Assembly: GCA_964537655.1 (NCBI GenBank)
Contig: CAZICN010000008.1
Coordinates: forward strand, 5,499-29,498
DNA from: an uncultured Aestuariivirga sp.
GTDB taxonomy: Bacteria; Pseudomonadota; Alphaproteobacteria; Rhizobiales; Aestuariivirgaceae
Direction of reading: 5' to 3'
DNA: 24,000 nucleotides
The notes beneath the pieces are model-generated. The model did no database searches, was not told the origin of the DNA, and saw only the letters and a program-made list of their open reading frames with translations. Made by a program: the position numbers and the translations under genes. Numbering within the stretch: the stretch's first letter is position 1; every line of letters starts with the position of its first letter. Shown here piece after piece: positions 5,583-18,248 of this stretch.

Positions 5583-6536
5583 TTATTGCAGCCAGGCCTT
5601 CCAGACCGCCTCGTTCTCGGCGACCCACTTCTTGGCCGCGTCCTCGGGCGTCATGCCCTCGACATCGACCATGGCGGCGGCGGCCGCGATCTGCGGATTG
5701 GTGAAATTGACCTTCTTCAGGATCGCGGTCGCCTTCGGCCATTTTTCGGCGAGCTGCTTCGAGCCGGCCTTCTTGAGATAACCCTTGGCCGGGGCGCCGC
5801 AATCATAGACGGCGTCGGGATTCATGCCCCATTTGGGATCCGACAGGCAGGCCGGCTCATAGGTCGGGAACTCGACGAACTGGCCATCGAACTTCGCCTC
5901 GATGAAGTTCGGCGTCCAGTTGAACAGCACGATCGGTTCCTTGCGGTCATAGGCGGCCTGCAGTTCCGCCCACAAGGTCGCCGCCTGGCCGACCGGCACT
6001 TCCTGGAAGTTCATCTTCAGCGCCTGGATGCGCTCGGAATAGTGTTTGCCCCAGTCGGCCGGCGGTCCGACGAACCGGCCCTTGCTGCCGGTCTCGGCGG
6101 TGGCGAGCTTGCCGGCGCAGGCATCGAGCGCCTTCCAGTCGGGCAGGCCCGGGCACATCTCGTTCATGTATTTCGGATACCACCAGTCCTCGCGCGTCAC
6201 CGCTTCATGGGCGCCGAGGTCGATGGCGCCGCCGGCGATCGCCTTCTCGAAGGATTCGGCCTGCGAGCCTTCCCAGACCTCGACCTGGAAATCCATGTCG
6301 CCGGCCGCCAGCGCCGTATATTGCAGCTGCGTGTCGGAGGATTTGTATTCGACATTATTGCCCTGCGCCTGCAGGATCTGGCCGACGACATTGGAGAGCA
6401 CGAGCTGGCTCGTCCAGTTGTTGGTCACGATCTTGATCGGATCGGCGGAATCTTCCGCCCATGCCGCGGCGCTGACGCTCATCAGCATCGCGGCGCCCGT
6501 CAGACTGGTCCTTGCAATTGTCCTGATCGATTTCAT
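5583..6536 (-). CDS. Betaine/choline-family (ProX-like) periplasmic substrate-binding protein; candidate TMAO/methylamine binder
   Basis: MKSIRTIARTSLTGAAMLMSVSAAAWA signal peptide. SD GGAGAGGA lies 5-12 nt upstream of the ATG at 6536, which I prefer over the track start at 6551. ProX-like, Trp-rich sequence (NNWTSQ, VWEGS, EDWWYP, FNWTPNF). First gene of the ABC operon. Confidence 0.85.
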   Translation of the reverse strand: MKSIRTIARTSLTGAAMLMSVSAAAWAEDSADPIKIVTNNWTSQLVLSNVVGQILQAQGNNVEYKSSDTQLQYTALAAGDMDFQVEVWEGSQAESFEKAIAGGAIDLGAHEAVTREDWWYPKYMNEMCPGLPDWKALDACAGKLATAETGSKGRFVGPPADWGKHYSERIQALKMNFQEVPVGQAATLWAELQAAYDRKEPIVLFNWTPNFIEAKFDGQFVEFPTYEPACLSDPKWGMNPDAVYDCGAPAKGYLKKAGSKQLAEKWPKATAILKKVNFTNPQIAAAAAMVDVEGMTPEDAAKKWVAENEAVWKAWLQ

Positions 6537-11523: not shown

Positions 11524-13125
11524 TCAGGCCCCGGCCCGCACCGACGCCCAGTCGAGATCGAAACGGGCGAGGTATTTGCGCAGGCGGTCGGCGTCGTTGC
11601 CGCTCGTCTTCTCCTGGCGCGATGCGGCGAACAGCCGTCGGCCGGCGGCGCTGAGCGATGCGCTCTCGCGGCAGATGGCGATCACCGTGGCGAGCTGGGC
11701 CTGGTCGAAGAGATCGATCCGCGCGATGCGCTCCGGCGGAAAAACCTCGCGCAGCAGCTCACCCGGTTCGCCGCGGCGTCCGTCCGACCACAGGCTCTTG
11801 AGCCGCGCGATTTCTTCCTCGACGGTCGTCTCGTCGATGCGGCCCTTGGGCGCCAGCGTCACCATGCGGGTGATCGAGGCGGAAAGGTCGCGGAAATTGG
11901 CACGCCACTCCGCTTCGGCCGAGGTCGCGAAGGCGGTGAAGCGGGACCGCGCTTCCTTGTTGAAGGTGATCTTGGCGCCGTCGTCCTGGGCATGGCGCTC
12001 GAGCTCGAAGTCGATATTGGGCTCGATATCTTCCGATCTGTCCTTGAGGGCGGGCAGCGCGAAGGTCCACAGGTTGAGGCGCGCCAGCAGATCGTCGCGG
12101 AACCGCCCTGACCGCACCGCGTCATGGAGATCGCGGTTGGTGCCGGCGACGAGCTGGAAGTCGCTTGCCGTCTCCTTGTCGGCGCCGACCGCGAGGAAGC
12201 GTTTCTCCTCGATGGCGCGCAGGATCATCGCCTGTTCGTCGGGCCCGAGCTCGCCGATCTCGTCGAGAAACAAGAGGCCGCCATCGGCGGATTTGAGCAG
12301 GCCCGGCCGCGCCGACTGGGCGCCGGTAAAGGCGCCCTTCACATGGCCGAACAGCGAGGACATGGCGGTATCGCCGCGCAAGGTGGCGCAGTTCACGTCG
12401 ACGAATGGTCCTTCGATCTGGTGGCGCGACTTCTTGAGTTCATAGATGCGCCGCGCCAGCTGCGATTTGCCGGCGCCTGTCGGGCCGGTCAGCAGGAAGG
12501 GCGCCTTGGAATTGATGGCCACCTGCTCGATGCGGTCGATCATGCGGTTGAAGGCGGCGCTCCGCGTCGCGATGCCGGATTTGAGGAAGGACGCGGCGTC
12601 GTGCTGCTCGGCCCGGAAGCGCGTGGCGATCCGGTCATAGCGCGACAGGTCGAGATCGATGATCCGCATCGGGCTCGTGAGATCGCCGCGCGCTTTCCGG
12701 GGCGGCGAGAGTTGCAGGAGCCTCGCCGGGATATGGCGCGTCTCGGCGAGCAGGAACCAGCAGATCTGCTCCACATGTGTCCCGGTGGTGATGTTGATGA
12801 AATAGTCTTCCTTCTCCGTATCGAAGCTGCGGCCGCGGGCGAAATCATGCAGCGCGCCATAGACTTCCTCGAAATCCCAGGGGTCCTTGAGGTTGATGAC
12901 GACCGGCGCCACCTGGGTCTCGGGCGAGACCTGGTTGATGTCCTGGGTCAGCCGCTGGAAGAGACCGGCCGAGTGATTGTCATGGATGAGTTCGAGCCGG
13001 TGGACGATAAAATCCTCCTGCTGGCACACGGCGACCGTCGGCCGCCAGCGCTCCCACCGGTTCTCGTGTTTGGCGATATCGAGTTTGGTGCCGATGAAGC
13101 CGATGACGACATTGGTCCTGCTCAT
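11524..13125 (-). CDS. rtcR: RtcR, sigma54-dependent enhancer-binding activator with N-terminal CARF-like sensor domain
   Basis: Near full-length collinearity with E. coli RtcR as recalled (WRPT..CQQE....RLEL.HD, NPWDFEEVY..LHDFARG, INITTGTHV.QICWFLLAE, IIDLDLSRY, GPTGAGKS, GAFTGA, ESFCS-less AAA+ core, C-terminal DADRLRKYLARF). ATG at 13125, with a TTG one codon upstream. The stop abuts the torT stop. Confidence 0.95.
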   Translation of the reverse strand: MSRTNVVIGFIGTKLDIAKHENRWERWRPTVAVCQQEDFIVHRLELIHDNHSAGLFQRLTQDINQVSPETQVAPVVINLKDPWDFEEVYGALHDFARGRSFDTEKEDYFINITTGTHVEQICWFLLAETRHIPARLLQLSPPRKARGDLTSPMRIIDLDLSRYDRIATRFRAEQHDAASFLKSGIATRSAAFNRMIDRIEQVAINSKAPFLLTGPTGAGKSQLARRIYELKKSRHQIEGPFVDVNCATLRGDTAMSSLFGHVKGAFTGAQSARPGLLKSADGGLLFLDEIGELGPDEQAMILRAIEEKRFLAVGADKETASDFQLVAGTNRDLHDAVRSGRFRDDLLARLNLWTFALPALKDRSEDIEPNIDFELERHAQDDGAKITFNKEARSRFTAFATSAEAEWRANFRDLSASITRMVTLAPKGRIDETTVEEEIARLKSLWSDGRRGEPGELLREVFPPERIARIDLFDQAQLATVIAICRESASLSAAGRRLFAASRQEKTSGNDADRLRKYLARFDLDWASVRAGA

Positions 13126-13266
13126 CAAGGACTTATATCAAAAGATAAAAGACAATCCAATAGTATCTATTCTAGCGGAAGAATGGAGGAAGGGCGGGCG
13201 AAGAAAGAAAAATATAAAATAGTAATATCAATTAGATATACGAATTCTGGCGGATCCTCCCACGTC

Positions 13267-13282
13267 TGGCACGCAGGCTGCA
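13267..13282 (+). promoter_or_regulatory. Sigma54 (-24/-12) promoter of the rsr operon
   Basis: TGGCACGcaggCTGCA matches TGGCACG-N4-TTGCW at 15 of 16 positions with correct GG/GC spacing. It lies 33 nt upstream of the rsr ATG, with SD AAGGGAAAG between them, and is divergent from rtcR. Confidence 0.85.
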
Positions 13283-13314
13283 ATGGTGTGCGCGTACACA
13301 AAGGGAAAGAAGCC

Positions 13315-14874
13315 ATGGCAAACAAATCCGTGTTTGCATCGACGATCGGAAGGCTGCTTCCGCGTGCGAATGCCTGGAATCACGAGAAGGCTCCGGCCTA
13401 TGGCCTTGTGCCGCGCGCTGCGCTGGCGCAACTGGCCGCGACCGGGACCTTCAACCGGACCTTCTATGCGGAGCCGCGGGAGCAGCTCGATCAGGTGCTG
13501 AAGCTGGCATGGAAGGTGGATTCCGCCTTCATCGCCAGGACGGCGATCTATGCGCGCGAGAAGGGGCACATGAAGGACATGCCGGCGGCTTTGCTGGCGG
13601 TCCTCGCCACGCTCGATACGGGTGATTTCGCCAAGGCGTTTCCGCGGGTGATCACGAACGGGCGCATGCTGCGCAATTTCGTGCAGGTCATCCGATCGGG
13701 TGCGGTTGGCCGCAAGTCCCTGGGCTCGCGCCCGAAGCGCATGATCCTGGGCTGGCTGGCTTCGGCGTCGGATGAGGACATTCTGCGCGCGAGCATCGGC
13801 AACGATCCCTCGCTCGCCGATATCATCCGCATGGTGCATCCCAAGCCCGAGACGAAGACGCGCGAAGCGCTTTATGGCTATGTGATCGGCCGTCCCTATG
13901 ACGCTGACGCGTTGCCGCAGATCGTGAAGGATCTCGAAGCCTTCAAGCGCGACCCGTCTTTGCCGGTTCCGGCGGTGCCGTTCCAGTTGCTGACCGCGCT
14001 GCCGCTGACGCAGAAGCAGTGGGCTTCGGTGGCCGAGACGGCGTCCTGGCAGACCTTGCGCCAGGGGCTCAACACCTTCGCGCGTCACGGCGTGTTCGGC
14101 ATTGCCGGCATGTCGGAGCGCGTGGCCGAGCGCCTCGCCGACGCGAAGGCGATCGCCCGCGCCAAGGTTTTTCCCTATCAGCTGATGGCGGCCTATGCCG
14201 CCTCGGCCGGGGAAGTGCCGAAGCCGGTGCGCAACGCCTTGCAGGATGCGATGGAAATCGCCATTGGCAATGTGCCGGAGCTCGATCAGCGGATCGTCGT
14301 CTGCCCGGATGTTTCGGGTTCGATGTCGTCCCCGGTGACGGGTCACCGCAAGGGTGCGTCGAGCGCGGTGCGCTGCATCGATGTCGCGGCTTTGGTGGCC
14401 GCGTCCTTCCTGCGCCGCAACGCGAAGGTCGAGGTGCTGCCTTTCGAGCAGGATGTGGTCGATATCGACCTCAACCCGCGAGATACGGTGCTGACCAACG
14501 CGGCCAAGCTCGCCAGGATCGGCGGTGGCGGAACCAACTGCTCGGCGCCGCTGGCGCGACTGGCGCGTGAGAAGGCGAAGGTCGACCTCGTCATCTTCGT
14601 TTCCGATAACGAATCCTGGGTGGATGCATCCAAGGGTGGCGCGACCGGAACGACGACGATGAAGGCCTGGGAGAGGGTGAAGCGGGTAAATCCTGAAGCC
14701 AAGCTCGTTTGCATCGACATCCAGCCCTACATAACGACGCAGGCGGTCGAGCGCGAGGACATCCTGAATGTCGGAGGTTTCTCCGATACGGTGTTCGAGA
14801 TGATCGCCGCCTTCGCCGAGAACCGGCTGGGGGCGGATCACTGGATCGGCGAGATCGAGAAGATCGCGCTGTAA
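13315..14874 (+). CDS. rsr: Ro60 ortholog Rsr (TROVE domain plus vWA/MIDAS domain)
   Basis: 519 aa starting MANKSVFASTIGRLLP... TROVE-like N-terminal two thirds (TFYAEPREQLDQVL...ARTAIYAREKGHMKDMPA) and a C-terminal vWA with MIDAS DVSGSM. The 916-aa track ORF 12124..14874 is this gene plus an antisense-to-rtcR read-through. Confidence 0.9.
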   Translation: MANKSVFASTIGRLLPRANAWNHEKAPAYGLVPRAALAQLAATGTFNRTFYAEPREQLDQVLKLAWKVDSAFIARTAIYAREKGHMKDMPAALLAVLATLDTGDFAKAFPRVITNGRMLRNFVQVIRSGAVGRKSLGSRPKRMILGWLASASDEDILRASIGNDPSLADIIRMVHPKPETKTREALYGYVIGRPYDADALPQIVKDLEAFKRDPSLPVPAVPFQLLTALPLTQKQWASVAETASWQTLRQGLNTFARHGVFGIAGMSERVAERLADAKAIARAKVFPYQLMAAYAASAGEVPKPVRNALQDAMEIAIGNVPELDQRIVVCPDVSGSMSSPVTGHRKGASSAVRCIDVAALVAASFLRRNAKVEVLPFEQDVVDIDLNPRDTVLTNAAKLARIGGGGTNCSAPLARLAREKAKVDLVIFVSDNESWVDASKGGATGTTTMKAWERVKRVNPEAKLVCIDIQPYITTQAVEREDILNVGGFSDTVFEMIAAFAENRLGADHWIGEIEKIAL

Positions 14875-14881
14875 CGATAAG

Positions 14882-14908
14882 GGACCACGGGGCGGCGTCT
14901 CGTGGTCC
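14882..14908 (+). other. Stem-loop immediately after the rsr stop
   Basis: GGACCACG (14882-14889) pairs with CGTGGTCC (14901-14908), with an 11-nt loop. Its function is unknown; it could be a processing or stability element, or the 5' boundary of the ncRNA array. Confidence 0.4.
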
Positions 14909-14917
14909 AGCGAAATG

Positions 14918-14985
14918 GGTGAATGCGGACAGGAATACAGTGGAACCGAGGGTTCAAATCCCCATTCTTGTCCTCCTTTGTCACC
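14918..14985 (+). ncRNA. Y-RNA-like module A (minimal: two stacked stems plus a T-loop-like hairpin)
   Basis: Outer stem GGTGA (14918-14922):TCACC (14981-14985). A 10-bp stem GGACAGGAAT (14927-14936):ATTCTTGTCC (14964-14973) with one G.T pair. Internal GGGTTCAAATCCC. It shares the GAATGC, AATACAG, T-loop and TTCTTGTC blocks with modules B and C in the same order. Confidence 0.45.
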
Positions 14986-14986
14986 A

Positions 14987-15123
14987 CCGCGGGGCGAATG
15001 CCTGCGGGACTACAGGGTAGAGCGCCTGCCGGTATGGCAGGAGGTCGGGGGTTCGTATCCTCCCGCCGGTGAAAGCCGGGCGTAGCTCAGGAAACGTCTC
15101 GCAACCATCTTGTCGCCTGGCGG
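14987..15123 (+). ncRNA. Y-RNA-like module B with tRNA-like domain (anticodon-like arm, T arm, loop-closed acceptor, split D stem)
   Basis: Terminal stem 14987-14997:15113-15123 (11 positions, one G.G mismatch, one G.T pair). Second stem 15003-15008:15098-15103. GGTAGAGCG-CCTGC-CGGTATG-GCAGG-AGGTC-GGGGG-TTCGTAT-CCTCC has exact tRNA spacing. Closed hairpin CGCCGG-tgaaag-CCGGGCG, then TAGCTCAGG. Confidence 0.6.
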
Positions 15124-15139
15124 ATTGATTGGAAGGAAC

Positions 15140-15279
15140 AGGCCCTTACGAATGCCGATGGAACTACAGATCGTTAATCTCCGTGTCGCGGGTTCGAATC
15201 CCGCCAGGTCCCCCAATATGGACCTGTAGCTCAGGTGGATAGAGCAGGCTGTTTCATCACCTTCTTGTCGTAAGGACCT
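15140..15279 (+). ncRNA. YrlA-like Y RNA (module C): Ro-type stem plus circularly permuted tRNA-like domain
   Basis: Terminal stem AGGCCCTTACGA (15140-15151):TCGTAAGGACCT (15268-15279) with one C.A mismatch. Second stem 15157-15162:15253-15258 plus 15166-15169:15249-15252. Canonical T arm GCGGG-TTCGAAT-CCCGC (15188-15204). Acceptor CAGGTCC (15205-15211) / GGACCTG (15220-15226) closed by CCCAATAT. TA, then D arm GCTC-AGGTGGATA-GAGC (15229-15245). It lies directly downstream of rsr, as the Y RNAs do in Salmonella. Confidence 0.7.
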
Positions 15280-15298: not shown

Positions 15299-15844
15299 AT
15301 GGAAAAGAACATCACTCGGCTCAGCAAGTTTCTGAGCTACATTCTGCGCCACGCACCGGATGAGATCGGTCTCGTATTGAGCGAGGGCGGCTGGGTCTCG
15401 GCCAGCGAGCTCATCGCCAAAGCGGGCGCGCATGGATATCAGCTCACGCCGGAAATCCTCCGCGAAATCGTGGCGAGCAATGACAAAAAGCGCTTCACCT
15501 TGTCGCCGGATGGGGCGCGGATCAGGGCGGCGCAAGGTCATTCAGTGGCCGTCAGTCTCGATCTGGCACCGGTCACGCCACCGAGCCAGCTTTATCATGG
15601 CACGGCGGCGAAGGTGCTGGACAAGATCCTGGCGGAAGGCCTCACGCCGCAAACACGCCAGCATGTCCACCTCTCGCTCGATAGGGAGACGGCGCGCAAG
15701 GTGGGCATGCGGCACGGCAAGCCGGTCATTCTCCTCGTCGCGGCGGATCGGATGCATCATGATGGCCTGCATTTCTACAAGGCCGACAATGGCGTCTGGC
15801 TGACCAGCCATGTGGCGCCGCATTATTTGACTGTGAAGGATTGA
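15299..15844 (+). CDS. kptA: RNA 2'-phosphotransferase (Tpt1/KptA family, NAD-dependent)
   Basis: 181 aa. SKFLSYILRHAPDEIGLVLSEGGW...DKKRF...IRAAQGHS...LYHGT...HVHLS...A.KVG.RHG.PVIL...NGVWLT are collinear with E. coli KptA as recalled, including the R-H-R-R catalytic-type motifs (LRH, RAxQGHS, HVHLS). Confidence 0.9.
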   Translation: MEKNITRLSKFLSYILRHAPDEIGLVLSEGGWVSASELIAKAGAHGYQLTPEILREIVASNDKKRFTLSPDGARIRAAQGHSVAVSLDLAPVTPPSQLYHGTAAKVLDKILAEGLTPQTRQHVHLSLDRETARKVGMRHGKPVILLVAADRMHHDGLHFYKADNGVWLTSHVAPHYLTVKD

Positions 15845-15849
15845 AGACC

Positions 15850-17085
<1,236 letters not shown>

Positions 17086-17228: not shown

Positions 17229-18248
17229 ATGTTGACCATCGATGGCAGTCAGGGCGAGGGCGGCGGGCAGATCCTGCGCTCGGCTCTGACGCTTTCCTTG
17301 CTGACGGGCGAACCGTTCCGGATCGAGAACATCCGGGCCGGCCGCGCCAAGCCGGGCCTGCTGCGCCAGCATCTGGCGGCAGTGAAGGCGGCCGTGCAGA
17401 TTTCCGGCGGCAAGGCCCAGGGTGTCGAGCTCGGCTCGACCGCGATTACCTTCGAGCCGGGCGAGGTGCGGGCGGGCGACTATGCCTTTGCCATTGGCTC
17501 GGCGGGAGCCGCTTCGCTCGTCTTTCAGACTGTGTTCCTGCCGCTGGCGCGGCAGACGGCGGCCTCGCGTGTCACCATCGAAGGCGGCACGCACAATTTC
17601 GCAGCACCGCCCTTCGAGTTTCTCGACCGCGCCTTTCTTCCCGCGGTGGGCCGGATGGGCTTCGATGCGAAGCTCACTTTGCATCGGCATGGCTTCTATC
17701 CGGCGGGCGGCGGCAAGCTCGAGGCCGGGATCGGCCCGGTGCGCGCCGCGCCTGCGCGTTTTGCGCTCGAGGATCGCGGTGCGCTGCTGTCACGCACCGG
17801 CGAGGCGATGTTCGCCAATCTGGCCTTCGATATCGCCCAGCGCGAAGCCGGCAAGCTTCGGGAGCTTCTCCGGCTCGCCGACGGCGATGTGAAGATCAGG
17901 GAGGTCAAGGCCTCGGGGCCGGGCAATCTGCTGTGGATCGAGATCCGCCATGAACATGTCACCGATGTCTTCACCGCGCATGGCGAGCTCGGCGTCTCGG
18001 CCGAGCAGGTCGCGGGCAAGGTGGCGAAGCAGGTCGAGAAATATATCGAGAGCGAGGTCGCCATTGGCGCGCATCTCGCCGATCAGCTCTTGCTGCCCCT
18101 GGCGCTGGCGGGCGGTGGCCGCTTCACCACCACGAGGCCGACGCCGCATACCCACAGCAATATTGCGGTCATCGAGAAGTTCCTGCCCGTCGAGATCACG
18201 ATCGCCGAGACCGGACGCGGCGGGCGTCTGATCGAGGTGTCGCTGTAG
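17229..18248 (+). CDS. rtcA: RNA 3'-terminal phosphate cyclase RtcA
   Basis: LTIDGSQGEGGGQILRSALTLSLLTGEPFRIENIRAGRAKPGLLRQHL, AIGSAG, RHGFYPAGGG, ADQLLLPLALAG, TNIAVIEKFLPV are collinear with E. coli RtcA as recalled. Confidence 0.95.
   Translation: MLTIDGSQGEGGGQILRSALTLSLLTGEPFRIENIRAGRAKPGLLRQHLAAVKAAVQISGGKAQGVELGSTAITFEPGEVRAGDYAFAIGSAGAASLVFQTVFLPLARQTAASRVTIEGGTHNFAAPPFEFLDRAFLPAVGRMGFDAKLTLHRHGFYPAGGGKLEAGIGPVRAAPARFALEDRGALLSRTGEAMFANLAFDIAQREAGKLRELLRLADGDVKIREVKASGPGNLLWIEIRHEHVTDVFTAHGELGVSAEQVAGKVAKQVEKYIESEVAIGAHLADQLLLPLALAGGGRFTTTRPTPHTHSNIAVIEKFLPVEITIAETGRGGRLIEVSL

What the first reader, a model, noticed from the sequence alone, without database searches (positions are those of the whole stretch)
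14918..15279. Three tandem paralogous tRNA-like ncRNA modules supported by compensatory base changes
The rsr-kptA spacer is not random. Three consecutive segments share the same ordered blocks.
- GAATGC at 14921 / 14996 / 15150.
- Exactly 13 nt later, A[A/C]TACAG at 14934 / 15009 / 15163.
- A T-loop block GGGTTC[A/G][A/T]ATCC at 14950 / 15049 / 15190.
- [A/T]TCTTGTC at 14965 / 15107 / 15262.
- B and C also share TAGCTCAGG (15083 / 15227) and ACC before the TCTTGTC block.
Between the conserved blocks the sequences differ but stay complementary. B pairs TGCGGG (15003-15008) with CTCGCA (15098-15103). C pairs GATGGA (15157-15162) with TTCATC (15253-15258). Four of six pairs change on both strands, and the same G.U is kept at position 5. 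The terminal stems differ completely in sequence yet both pair, each with one internal mismatch (B 14987-14997:15113-15123; C 15140-15151:15268-15279). The loop-closed acceptor-like hairpins (CGCCGG/CCGGGCG versus CAGGTCC/GGACCTG) behave the same way. This is the signature of duplicated, structurally constrained RNAs, either tandem Y RNA genes or one multi-domain RNA. The conserved asymmetric internal loop (AUGCC opposite ACC[A/U]UCUUG) next to a mismatched stem is a candidate Rsr-binding site.
Basis: seen in the sequence. Interest (0 to 1): 0.85.

Follow-up and report, generated by a model that had tools for sequence, protein, structure and literature searches.

The report
Three tandem Y RNAs, one newly permuted
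The spacer after the bacterial Ro60 gene (rsr) holds three different small Y RNA genes in a row, and the middle one belongs to a widespread but apparently undescribed class whose tRNA-like part is a whole cloverleaf opened at the D loop.

Summary
The window holds an RtcR/sigma-54 RNA-repair operon: rtcR <> rsr, three RNA modules, kptA, rtcB, rtcA. Each module closes on itself through a terminal stem carrying the known bacterial Y RNA motif (GNCGAAN0-1G, opposite CUUGUC).

- **Module C (15140-15279)** is a canonical YrlA. Rfam RF02553 gives 66 bits, E 6e-15, just under the gathering score of 69. It has a 7-bp acceptor stem followed by an encoded C-CCA, like a permuted pre-tRNA.
- **Module A (14918-14985)** is a reduced Y RNA with only a weak T-arm-like hairpin.
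- **Module B (14987-15123)** is not a YrlA. The 3' half of its D arm lies upstream of an anticodon-like arm, V loop, T arm and tetraloop-closed acceptor. The 5' half lies downstream. The Y stem therefore emerges from the D loop.

Thirty-seven such B-type modules were found across Alphaproteobacteria, Acidobacteriota, Verrucomicrobiota and metagenomes. On the 36 aligned ones, 88.5% of cells pair and 35 of 40 pairs covary. The split D stem is 100% paired, with three compensatory changes. Rfam never detects them, and I found no description in the papers available.

Verdict: tandem Y RNA genes, a known kind, containing a new structural variant. No expression or binding data exist.

The parts
11524..13128 (-). 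rtcR, a sigma-54 enhancer-binding activator, divergent from the operon
   Evidence: Pfam RtcR 269 bits and Sigma54_activat 168 bits
13267..13282 (+). Sigma-54-type promoter TGGCACgcaggCTGCA, 33 nt upstream of the rsr start codon
   Evidence: Only match in the window. A pattern match this loose is expected by chance somewhere in 24 kb, so the position is what counts. No sigma-70-like promoter and no intrinsic terminator between 13000 and 18600.
13315..14874 (+). rsr (bacterial Ro60), 519 aa. The 916-aa ORF starting at 12124 is an over-extension.
   Evidence: Pfam vWA_Ro60 70 bits and TROVE 24 bits. D. radiodurans Rsr 2NVO at E 3e-20 over the full length.
14882..14908 (+). Stable hairpin just after the rsr stop codon, with no U tract
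   Evidence: -21.5 kcal/mol, z -4.3. Kept with compensatory changes in L004-L006. Role unknown.
14918..14985 (+). Module A, a reduced Y RNA. P1 is GGUGA 14918-22 / UCACC 14981-85. The motif is GGUGAAUG. P2 is 14927-35 / 14965-73. UACAG is at 14936-40. A weak T-arm-like hairpin lies at 14950-62. UUUGUC is at 14977-82.
   Evidence: 98% of cells paired in 4 orthologues, 3 pairs with double changes. Coordinates verified.
14987..15123 (+). Module B, a Y RNA with a D-loop-opened tRNA-like cloverleaf. The outer stem is 14987-90 / 15120-23. P1 is 14992-97 / 15113-18. The motif GGCGAAUG is at 14993-15000. P2 is 15003-10 / 15096-15103.
   Evidence: R1 model 146.7 bits. Family covariation. Rfam YrlA gives only 23.7 bits.
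15016..15024 (+). B: 3' part of the D loop (GGUA = G18 G19 U20 A21), the D-stem 3' strand GAGC 15020-23, and G26
   Evidence: Pairs with GCUC 15085-88. This stem is 100% paired in 35 distinct sequences, with 3 compensatory changes.
15025..15041 (+). B: anticodon-like arm (CCUGCC / GGCAGG). The loop sequence is not conserved across the family.
   Evidence: Helix 5 is 96.5% paired and all 6 pairs covary.
15042..15063 (+). B: variable loop AGGUC (C48 at 15046) and T arm 15047-63 with T loop UUCGUAU
   Evidence: Helix 6 is 98% paired. Levitt pair 15-48 is G-C in 20 sequences and A-U in 3. The window copy has U58 where 23 of 25 have A.
15064..15082 (+). B: acceptor-like hairpin closed by a GAAA tetraloop (15071-74), with one bulged G
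   Evidence: Helix 7 is 83% paired and all 6 pairs covary. GNRA loops recur among B-type modules.
15083..15095 (+). B: U8 A9, the D-stem 5' strand GCUC 15085-88, the 5' part of the D loop (A14 G15 G), and the A-rich linker AAAC leading back into P2
   Evidence: U8 in 23/25, A14 in 25/25. Alignment shown.
15140..15279 (+). Module C, a canonical YrlA-type Y RNA. P1 is 15140-51 / 15268-79. The motif UACGAAUG is at 15147-54. P2 is 15157-64 / 15251-58. The V hairpin is 15168-80, the T arm 15188-15204, the D arm 15229-45, and CUUGUC is at 15264-69.
   Evidence: Rfam RF02553 66.0 bits, E 6.3e-15, model positions 1-114. Consensus fold with 8 orthologues.
15205..15226 (+). C: 7-bp acceptor stem (CAGGUCC 15205-11 / GGACCUG 15220-26) enclosing the discriminator C15212, encoded CCA 15213-15, and spacer AUAU 15216-19. 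The predicted RNase P site is between U15219 and G15220.
   Evidence: 20 of 64 YrlA-like modules have 7 bp + N + CCA at exactly this offset, where about 1 is expected by chance. The cleavage itself is inferred by analogy with M. smegmatis YrlA (PMC4201824).
15299..15844 (+). kptA / Tpt1, RNA 2'-phosphotransferase
   Evidence: Pfam PTS_2-RNA 171 bits. Found at this operon position only in the window's close clade, L004-L006.
15841..17085 (+). rtcB, RNA ligase
   Evidence: Pfam RtcB 437 bits
17229..18248 (+). rtcA, RNA 3'-phosphate cyclase
   Evidence: Pfam RTC 243 bits plus RTC_insert

Best explanation
The rsr-kptA spacer encodes three separate Y RNA genes lying head to tail inside an RtcR/sigma-54-controlled RNA-repair operon (rsr, A, B, C, kptA, rtcB, rtcA).

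**Shown.** Each module folds on its own into a terminal helix carrying the Rsr-associated motif, followed by a second helix and a distal domain. The distal domains differ.
- A has only a vestigial T-arm hairpin.
- B has a complete tRNA-like cloverleaf. Both its acceptor end and its anticodon-like end are closed by loops, and it joins the Y stem through its D loop.
- C is a canonical YrlA. Its Y stem stands in for the anticodon stem, and its 7-bp acceptor stem encloses an encoded N73-CCA.

**Inferred from work on Salmonella, M. smegmatis and D. radiodurans.**
- The operon is transcribed from the sigma-54 promoter when RtcR senses damaged tRNA.
- The three RNAs are cut out of the polycistronic transcript.
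- Each binds the outer face of the Rsr ring through the motif helix.
- Each presents a different tRNA-like handle that tethers or gates Rsr towards different tRNA-binding partners, such as PNPase or repair and modification enzymes.
- C is additionally likely to be nicked by RNase P at U15219/G15220, exposing a CCA 3' end as in M. smegmatis YrlA.
For: **Gene context.**

**Module C.** Full-length YrlA match at 66 bits, E 6e-15. Orthologues fold the same way, with 12 covarying pairs and an invariant CCA.

**Module B.**
- A model built on the proposed fold finds 25 modules of at least 72 bits at rsr loci. A search of metagenomes by RNA pattern alone adds 12 more.
- On 36 sequences, 88.5% of cells pair, against 38-52% when the partners are slid. 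35 of 40 pairs have double changes. None of 500 shuffles reaches any of the five measures.
- The split D stem is 100% paired, with U-A to G-C, C-G to G-C and G-C to A-U exchanges.
- The tRNA core residues are conserved, and the Levitt pair covaries between G-C and A-U.
- After in-silico de-permutation, ARAGORN of 36 as tRNA. It of 360 shuffles and nothing in the unaltered window.

**Module A.** 98% paired, with 3 double changes in 4 orthologues.

**Association with rsr.**
- All 207 model hits lie on the rsr strand.
- 70 of 80 loci hold at least two modules.
- 9 of 13 B-type modules found without reference to rsr lie just downstream of an rsr homologue.

**Precedent.** Published work shows several Y RNAs per rsr locus, processing from one precursor, and RNase P cleavage of YrlA (PMC4201824). 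It also shows RtcR activation by tRNA fragments (PMC7790460).
Against: - No transcript, processing or Rsr-binding data exist for this organism or for any B-type RNA.
- Neither B nor C reaches the Rfam YrlA gathering score.
- Only B matches GNCGAAN0-1G exactly. A has U for C (compensated in the helix) and C has U for the first G.
- A's T-arm is only 3 bp, competes with another hairpin in the minimum-energy fold, and is replaced in L005.
- The window's B copy has U58, a G.U pair in the T stem and a bulged acceptor, so it may be under looser constraint than the family.
- The covariation counts come from a model-fitted alignment, which leans towards the model's structure.
- Two B-type modules lie inside tRNA arrays with no rsr in the DNA held.
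Confidence: 0.85

Rival explanations
1. The region is one multi-domain RNA element that stays part of the operon mRNA. The three domains would act in cis, for example by loading Rsr onto its own transcript or by controlling the stability or translation of kptA-rtcB-rtcA, rather than being released as separate small RNAs.
For: Spacing is very tight: 1 nt between A and B, 16 nt between B and C, 19 nt between C and the kptA start codon. There are no internal promoters or terminators. A conserved hairpin sits at the rsr end.
Against: Each module closes on itself with its own terminal stem. Module number, order and spacing vary freely between loci, from 1 to 7. B-type modules also occur inside tRNA arrays. 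Characterised bacterial Y RNAs are released from polycistronic precursors (PMC4201824).
Confidence: 0.08
2. Modules C and B are permuted pre-tRNA-like genes that are matured into tRNA-like or circular molecules. RNase P and 3' trimming would act at the acceptor, and the operon's own RtcB, RtcA and KptA would cut and join at the Y stem, as happens for permuted tRNA genes of red algae.
For: C has a 7-bp acceptor stem, N73-CCA, and a spacer ending in U before G+1, a layout shared by 20 of 64 YrlA-like modules. Most de-permuted B-type modules are called as tRNA. An RNA ligase, a cyclase and a 2'-phosphotransferase are encoded next door. Wang et al. raised this possibility for YrlA (10.1101/312249).
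Against: C has no anticodon loop. The anticodon-like loops of the B type are not conserved and are often tetraloops. B has no CCA. No bacterial splicing endonuclease is known (10.1101/312249). kptA occurs only in the window's clade. The conserved Rsr motif argues that the Y stem is kept.
Confidence: 0.05
3. Module B is just a diverged or decaying copy of canonical YrlA (or a tRNA-derived pseudogene), and the upstream GGUAGAGC is a coincidence.
For: B gives a weak YrlA hit (23.7 bits). The window copy has atypical features: U58 and a bulged acceptor.
Against: The same order of elements recurs in 37 modules from several phyla, with extensive covariation. The long-range D stem is 100% paired, with three independent compensatory exchanges. 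No GAGC lies downstream of GCUC in B.
Confidence: 0.02

Closest known systems
YrlA (Rfam RF02553; S. Typhimurium YrlA, crystal structure 6CU1; Chen et al. 2014, Wang et al. 2018)
   Same: Encoded next to rsr on the same strand, often within rtcR-controlled rsr...rtcBA operons. It has the 5' motif GNCGAAN0-1G in a terminal stem and a tRNA-like distal domain with T arm, loop-closed acceptor stem and D arm. Module C has all of these and aligns over the whole model.
   Different: C scores 3 bits below the curated threshold and has an encoded N73-CCA. B has the same Rsr module, but its D arm is split around the Y stem, and it carries a closed anticodon-like arm and a 5-nt V loop. It is opened at the D loop, not the anticodon loop.
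M. smegmatis YrlA and YrlB (Chen et al. 2014)
   Same: YrlA there has a 7-bp acceptor stem, is cut by RNase P and ends in CCA. YrlB is a second, smaller Rsr-bound RNA with a possible T arm, processed from the same precursor. C resembles this YrlA and A resembles this YrlB.
   Different: In M. smegmatis the RNAs lie upstream of rsr, are not under RtcR control, and the CA is added after transcription. Here CCA is encoded. Cleavage has not been tested here.
D. radiodurans Yrn1 (Chen et al. 2000, 2014)
   Same: An Rsr-bound Y RNA with a T arm and a possible anticodon-like arm, one of several Y RNAs at the locus.
   Different: As modelled in PMC4201824, in Yrn1 the hairpin between the D-like and T arms takes the anticodon-arm position, no full D arm is evident and there is no V arm. 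B has a loop-closed acceptor hairpin, a full D stem made of two distant strands, and a V loop.
Circularly permuted tRNA genes of Cyanidioschyzon merolae and some archaea (Soma 2007, Maruyama 2010, Chan 2011; cited in 10.1101/312249)
   Same: The 3' half precedes the 5' half, the acceptor ends are joined by a spacer, and the RNA's own ends pair. From memory, D-loop breakpoints are among those reported.
   Different: Those are matured into decoding tRNAs with anticodons. The modules here have no conserved anticodon, keep an Rsr-binding stem, and (for B) lack CCA.

Membership tests
Bacterial Y RNA (Rsr-associated ncRNA) | Encoded within about 4 kb of rsr on the same strand | tested here: met
   A, B and C start 44-266 nt after the rsr stop codon on the + strand. 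All 207 model hits at 83 loci are on the rsr strand.
Bacterial Y RNA (Rsr-associated ncRNA) | 5' motif GNCGAAN0-1G within a stem formed by the 5' and 3' ends | tested here: met
   B has GGCGAAUG, an exact match. A has GGUGAAUG, where the C-to-U change is compensated by G-to-A in the 3' strand. C has UACGAAUG, where the first G is U. All three terminal stems pair.
Bacterial Y RNA (Rsr-associated ncRNA) | Bound and stabilised by Rsr; accumulates as a discrete small RNA | not testable with these tools
   Needs Rsr immunoprecipitation and Northern blots or RNA-seq.
YrlA (Rfam RF02553) | Covariance-model score at or above the gathering score of 69 bits | tested here: not met
   C scores 66.0 bits (E 6.3e-15, full length), B scores 23.7 bits, and A has no hit. 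C misses narrowly. Six sequences at related loci pass.
YrlA (Rfam RF02553) | Order of elements: Y stem, (V), T arm, loop-closed acceptor stem, complete D arm, Y stem | tested here: met
   Met for C only. Not met for B, where the D-stem 3' strand (15020-23) precedes the T arm and the 5' strand (15085-88) follows the acceptor. Not met for A, which has no D arm and no acceptor hairpin.
YrlA (Rfam RF02553) | tRNA core residues for tertiary contacts: U8, A14, R15:Y48, G18 G19, T54 Psi55 C56, A58 | tested here: met
   C: all aligned to the model consensus. B-type family: conserved, with a covarying 15:48 pair. The window's B has U58.
tRNA | Contiguous cloverleaf with open acceptor ends and a 7-nt anticodon loop, recognised by tRNA finders | tested here: not met
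   ARAGORN finds no tRNA or tmRNA gene in the window, and Rfam finds no tRNA at the gathering score. B-type modules are called as tRNA only after artificial de-permutation (20 of 36), and the 'anticodons' are not conserved.
Permuted tRNA gene (matured to a decoding tRNA) | 3' half before 5' half, plus a functional anticodon loop and CCA or discriminator | tested here: not met
   C has N73-CCA and a 7-bp acceptor stem but no anticodon loop. B has an anticodon-like arm with unconserved loops and no CCA.
tmRNA / permuted tmRNA | tRNA-like domain plus a tag reading frame and pseudoknots | tested here: not met
   Only local matches to the T arm and adjacent acceptor hairpin of C, at 17-22 bits against a threshold of 47. 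ARAGORN finds none.

The most novel reading that the evidence does not exclude
The B type is a previously unrecognised, phylum-spanning family of Rsr-associated RNAs that presents a complete, doubly closed tRNA body hanging from its D loop. The CCA-encoding YrlA subclass (module C) is a true permuted pre-tRNA-like substrate. Together they would be made to be processed by the tRNA maturation and repair machinery: RNase P, and the operon's own RtcB, RtcA and KptA. This would yield nicked, CCA-ended or ligated tRNA-like molecules that act as decoys or adaptors during tRNA-damage stress.
Probability: 0.08. Interest if true: 0.85.

Novelty: new variant of a known kind. Interest (0 to 1): 0.6.

Why it matters
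Bacterial Y RNAs are thought to tether or gate the Ro60 ring through their variable domain, but the partner of the tRNA-like domain is unknown.

A second, independently constrained way of attaching a tRNA-like body to the same Rsr-binding stem narrows which surfaces matter. In the B type the attachment is through the D loop, leaving both helical ends closed and free. In YrlA the attachment is through the anticodon stem, leaving the elbow free.

The B type and the CCA-encoding YrlA subclass look like two different windows cut from a tandem tRNA pair. This fits the published model that Y RNAs arose from dimeric tRNA transcripts.

There is also a practical gap. Annotation based on the Rfam gathering score found only 6 YrlA at the 19 related loci checked and missed every B-type module. 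It also missed all three RNAs in this window, while arrays of 2-7 modules are the norm in this Rsr clade.

Tried and rejected
1. **Rfam at gathering thresholds.** Nothing was found in the window. The YrlA matches appeared only with E-value reporting.
2. **ARAGORN on the native sequence.** No tRNA or tmRNA was found.
3. **B derived from tRNA-Ala.** I suspected this from memory of the GAGCGCCUGC...GCAGGAGGUC stretch. It is not supported: de-permuted B-type cores are closest to Val, Met, Arg, Gly and others, with no consistent isotype.
4. **Link between the B type and kptA.** Rejected. kptA sits in the operon only in the window's clade.
5. **Pattern scans for the B-type 5' signature.** 9 of the 21 hits were an unrelated AT-rich phage coding sequence and were discarded. 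The one viral-contig hit (L084) was among them.
6. **BLASTN of B against phage genomes.** No match.
7. **Literature.** No mention of a D-loop-opened Y RNA in the papers held. I could not open the Annual Review of 2020, Burroughs & Aravind 2016, or the supplements of Chen 2014. Prior description therefore cannot be excluded.
8. **Minimum-energy folding of B alone.** It pairs GGGU with GCUC instead of GAGC with GCUC. Comparative data favour the latter.

Full report
**Setting.** The finding lies in the 424-nt spacer between two genes of one operon. Upstream and divergent is rtcR (11524-13128, minus strand; Pfam RtcR and Sigma54_activat). A sigma-54-type site, TGGCACgcaggCTGCA (13267-82), is the only such match in the window. 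It lies 33 nt before the start codon of rsr (13315-14874, 519 aa). rsr carries the Ro60 vWA and TROVE domains and matches D. radiodurans Rsr (PDB 2NVO) over its full length at E 3e-20. The 916-aa ORF listed from 12124 is an over-extension across the rtcR region. Downstream are kptA/Tpt1 (15299-15844), rtcB (15841-17085) and rtcA (17229-18248). No sigma-70-like promoter or intrinsic terminator is predicted between 13000 and 18600. This is consistent with a single RtcR-dependent transcript, as described for the Salmonella rsr-yrlBA-rtcBA operon (PMC7790460).

**The observation.** The two most specific blocks occur only there in the 24 kb. The combined signature occurs three times, all on the + strand. 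The quoted helices pair as claimed.

**Module C (15140-15279).**
- With E-value reporting, Rfam YrlA (RF02553) matches 15145-15277 over model positions 1-114 at 66.0 bits, E 6.3e-15. This is 3 bits under the gathering score, which explains why the default search found nothing.
- The order of elements is canonical: terminal stem with UACGAAUG, second helix, UACAG, a small V hairpin, T arm, loop-closed acceptor stem, complete D arm, and CUUGUC back to the terminal stem.
- Eight orthologues give the same consensus fold, with 12 covarying pairs.
- The acceptor stem is exactly 7 bp and is followed by C-CCA, the spacer AUAU, and then G+1. The same layout (7 bp, N, CCA at that precise offset) is found in 20 of 64 YrlA-like modules at related loci, where about one would be expected by chance. 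It is found in none of 10 B-type modules.
- This looks like the junction of two tandem tRNA genes. By analogy with M. smegmatis YrlA, which RNase P cuts and which ends in CCA (PMC4201824), I predict cleavage between U15219 and G15220. This is an inference.

**Module B (14987-15123).**
- Rfam YrlA gives only 23.7 bits, and the middle of that alignment is poor.
- Reading the sequence, TAGCTCAGG (U8 A9, D-stem 5' strand, A14 G15) has no GAGC downstream. GGUAGAGC lies 65 nt upstream, directly after the UACAG linker.
- Between the two lie a 6-bp hairpin, AGGUC, a T arm, and a hairpin closed by GAAA. Together this is a complete cloverleaf in the order: D 3' half, anticodon-like arm, V loop, T arm, acceptor 3' strand, tetraloop, acceptor 5' strand, D 5' half.
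- The Y stem therefore enters between R15/N16 and G18. From established tRNA knowledge, that is the variable alpha region of the D loop, which tolerates extra nucleotides.

**Comparative test of B.**
- A regular-expression search of 83 loci fetched through Rsr or BLASTN found the same order in several phyla.
- A covariance model built on the proposed fold (R1) found 25 modules of at least 72 bits at rsr loci. They come from Alphaproteobacteria (Taklimakanibacter, Rhizobium, Novosphingobium, Emcibacter, Mesorhizobium and others), Acidobacteriota, a verrucomicrobial MAG, and MAGs labelled Heliomicrobium.
- A metagenome scan by RNA pattern alone added 12 more.
- On the 36-sequence alignment, 88.5% of cells pair against 38-52% when the partners are slid. 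35 of 40 pairs show changes on both sides. None of 500 shuffles reaches any measure.
- The long-range D stem is 100% paired, with three independent exchanges: U-A to G-C in L008, C-G to G-C in L080, and G-C to A-U in L076.
- tRNA core residues are kept: U8 in 23/25, A14, A21 and C56 in 25/25, G18 in 22/25, A58 in 23/25. The Levitt pair covaries, G-C in 20 sequences and A-U in 3.
- I cut each sequence in the acceptor loop and removed the Y stem. ARAGORN then called 20 of 36 as tRNA, against 0 of 360 shuffles, with unconserved 'anticodons'.
- Caveat: the alignment is fitted to the model. However, the D-stem columns are anchored by invariant flanks.

**Module A (14918-14985).** Alignment with the three closest relatives (Rsr 81-93% identical) shows that the true 3' motif is UUUGUC at 14977-82 (CUUGUC in the relatives), followed by UCACC, which pairs with GGUGA. 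The C-to-U change in the motif is compensated in the helix. TCTTGTC at 14965 is the 3' strand of the second helix. This fold is 98% paired in four orthologues, with three double changes. The distal part is a weak T-arm-like hairpin (3 bp, loop UUCAAAU). It is better formed in L006 and replaced in L005. A resembles a larger, common class that has a T arm and an acceptor-like hairpin but no D arm, and it recalls M. smegmatis YrlB.

**Wider pattern.**
- A simple module finder detects 1-7 modules downstream of rsr in 80 loci, and 70 of them have two or more.
- All 207 R1 hits lie on the rsr strand.
- A T-arm-only module directly precedes the B type in 9 of 25 loci.
- At the gathering score, Rfam finds a YrlA in only 6 of 19 loci and never a B type.
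- Of the 13 B-type modules found without reference to rsr, 9 lie just downstream of an rsr homologue. Two are on contigs too short to tell. Two sit inside same-strand tRNA arrays.

**What is known.** Chen et al. 2014 (PMC4201824) reported 355 YrlA candidates in 254 bacteria, including Rhizobium etli. They described the motif, several Y RNAs per locus, and processing from one precursor. Wang et al. 2018 (10.1101/312249) showed that YrlA is a tRNA mimic equivalent to a tRNA permuted at the anticodon, and they discussed an origin from dimeric tRNA transcripts. I found no description of a D-loop-opened form in the papers I could read. Several relevant sources were not available.

**Verdict.** The region holds three tandem Y RNA genes of three classes. 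The general finding belongs to a known kind. Module B represents a new structural variant that is conserved and widespread. Function, processing and Rsr binding are inferred, not shown.

Noticed in passing
L019, L021, L023, L032, L033, L037, L043, L047, L048, L049, L070 (e.g. L070 59-3852, rsr from 4001): In Pyrinomonadaceae/Acidobacteriota loci, rsr is directly preceded on the same strand by a dense tRNA gene array of 6-30 genes within 4 kb. A gap in the array (L070 1662-2231) encodes a 189-aa protein with an HNH-nuclease-like motif, judged by eye. In L021 and L023 an rtcB homologue lies upstream of the array. I found no paper linking tRNA arrays to Ro60.
   Followed up: partly
L101 3788-3941; L086 1843-1986: Two B-type modules (88 and 86 bits) sit inside same-strand tRNA gene arrays, between tRNA-Ser or tRNA-Ala and tRNA-His. 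No rsr is present in the DNA held, and both arrays run to the contig ends.
   Followed up: partly
window 15205-15226; L001, L003-L006, L008, L010, L011, L014-L016, L022, L036, L042, L044, L052, L074, L077: A subclass of YrlA-like modules has exactly 7 acceptor pairs, then N73-CCA, then a spacer (4-70 nt, often ending UAU), then G+1. This holds for 20 of 64 modules. The others are closed by short or GNRA loops.
   Followed up: partly
L018 5811-5885; L061 6211-6286; L068 5434-5508; L078 6137-6212: Genuine tRNA genes (Asn, Gln, Arg, Arg) are embedded between Y RNA modules in the arrays downstream of rsr.
   Followed up: no
window 14882-14908: A very stable hairpin (-21.5 kcal/mol, z -4.3) lies 8 nt after the rsr stop codon, with no U tract. 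It is kept with compensatory changes in L004-L006. It may be a processing site or a 3'-end stabiliser for the rsr message.
   Followed up: partly
L005, about 5825-6000: The relative 'Rhizobiales bacterium Y(2018)' has an insertion of about 170 nt between modules B and C. By eye it looks rich in inverted repeats. The window, L004 and L006 lack it.
   Followed up: no
L015 5027-5176: An Rfam tRNA hit (34.7 bits) spans about 150 nt across two adjacent YrlA modules. I take it to be built from parts of the two neighbours. This would be the mirror image of the dimeric-tRNA false positives that Chen et al. warned about.
   Followed up: no
window 12124-14874: The longest ORF over rsr (916 aa) runs through the rtcR region on the opposite strand. 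The real rsr start is the ATG at 13315, behind a purine-rich ribosome-binding site and the sigma-54 site.
   Followed up: yes
window 15052-15058; L004: The T loop of B in the window and its closest relative reads UUCGUAU / UUCGUUU, with U at position 58 where 23 of 25 family members have A. L005 has a 6-nt loop. Constraint on the T loop may be relaxed in this clade.
   Followed up: no
L060 7150-7194: An Acido-Lenti-1 RNA (RF01687, 39 bits, above threshold) lies about 800 nt downstream of the Y RNA array in a Blastocatellia MAG.
   Followed up: no
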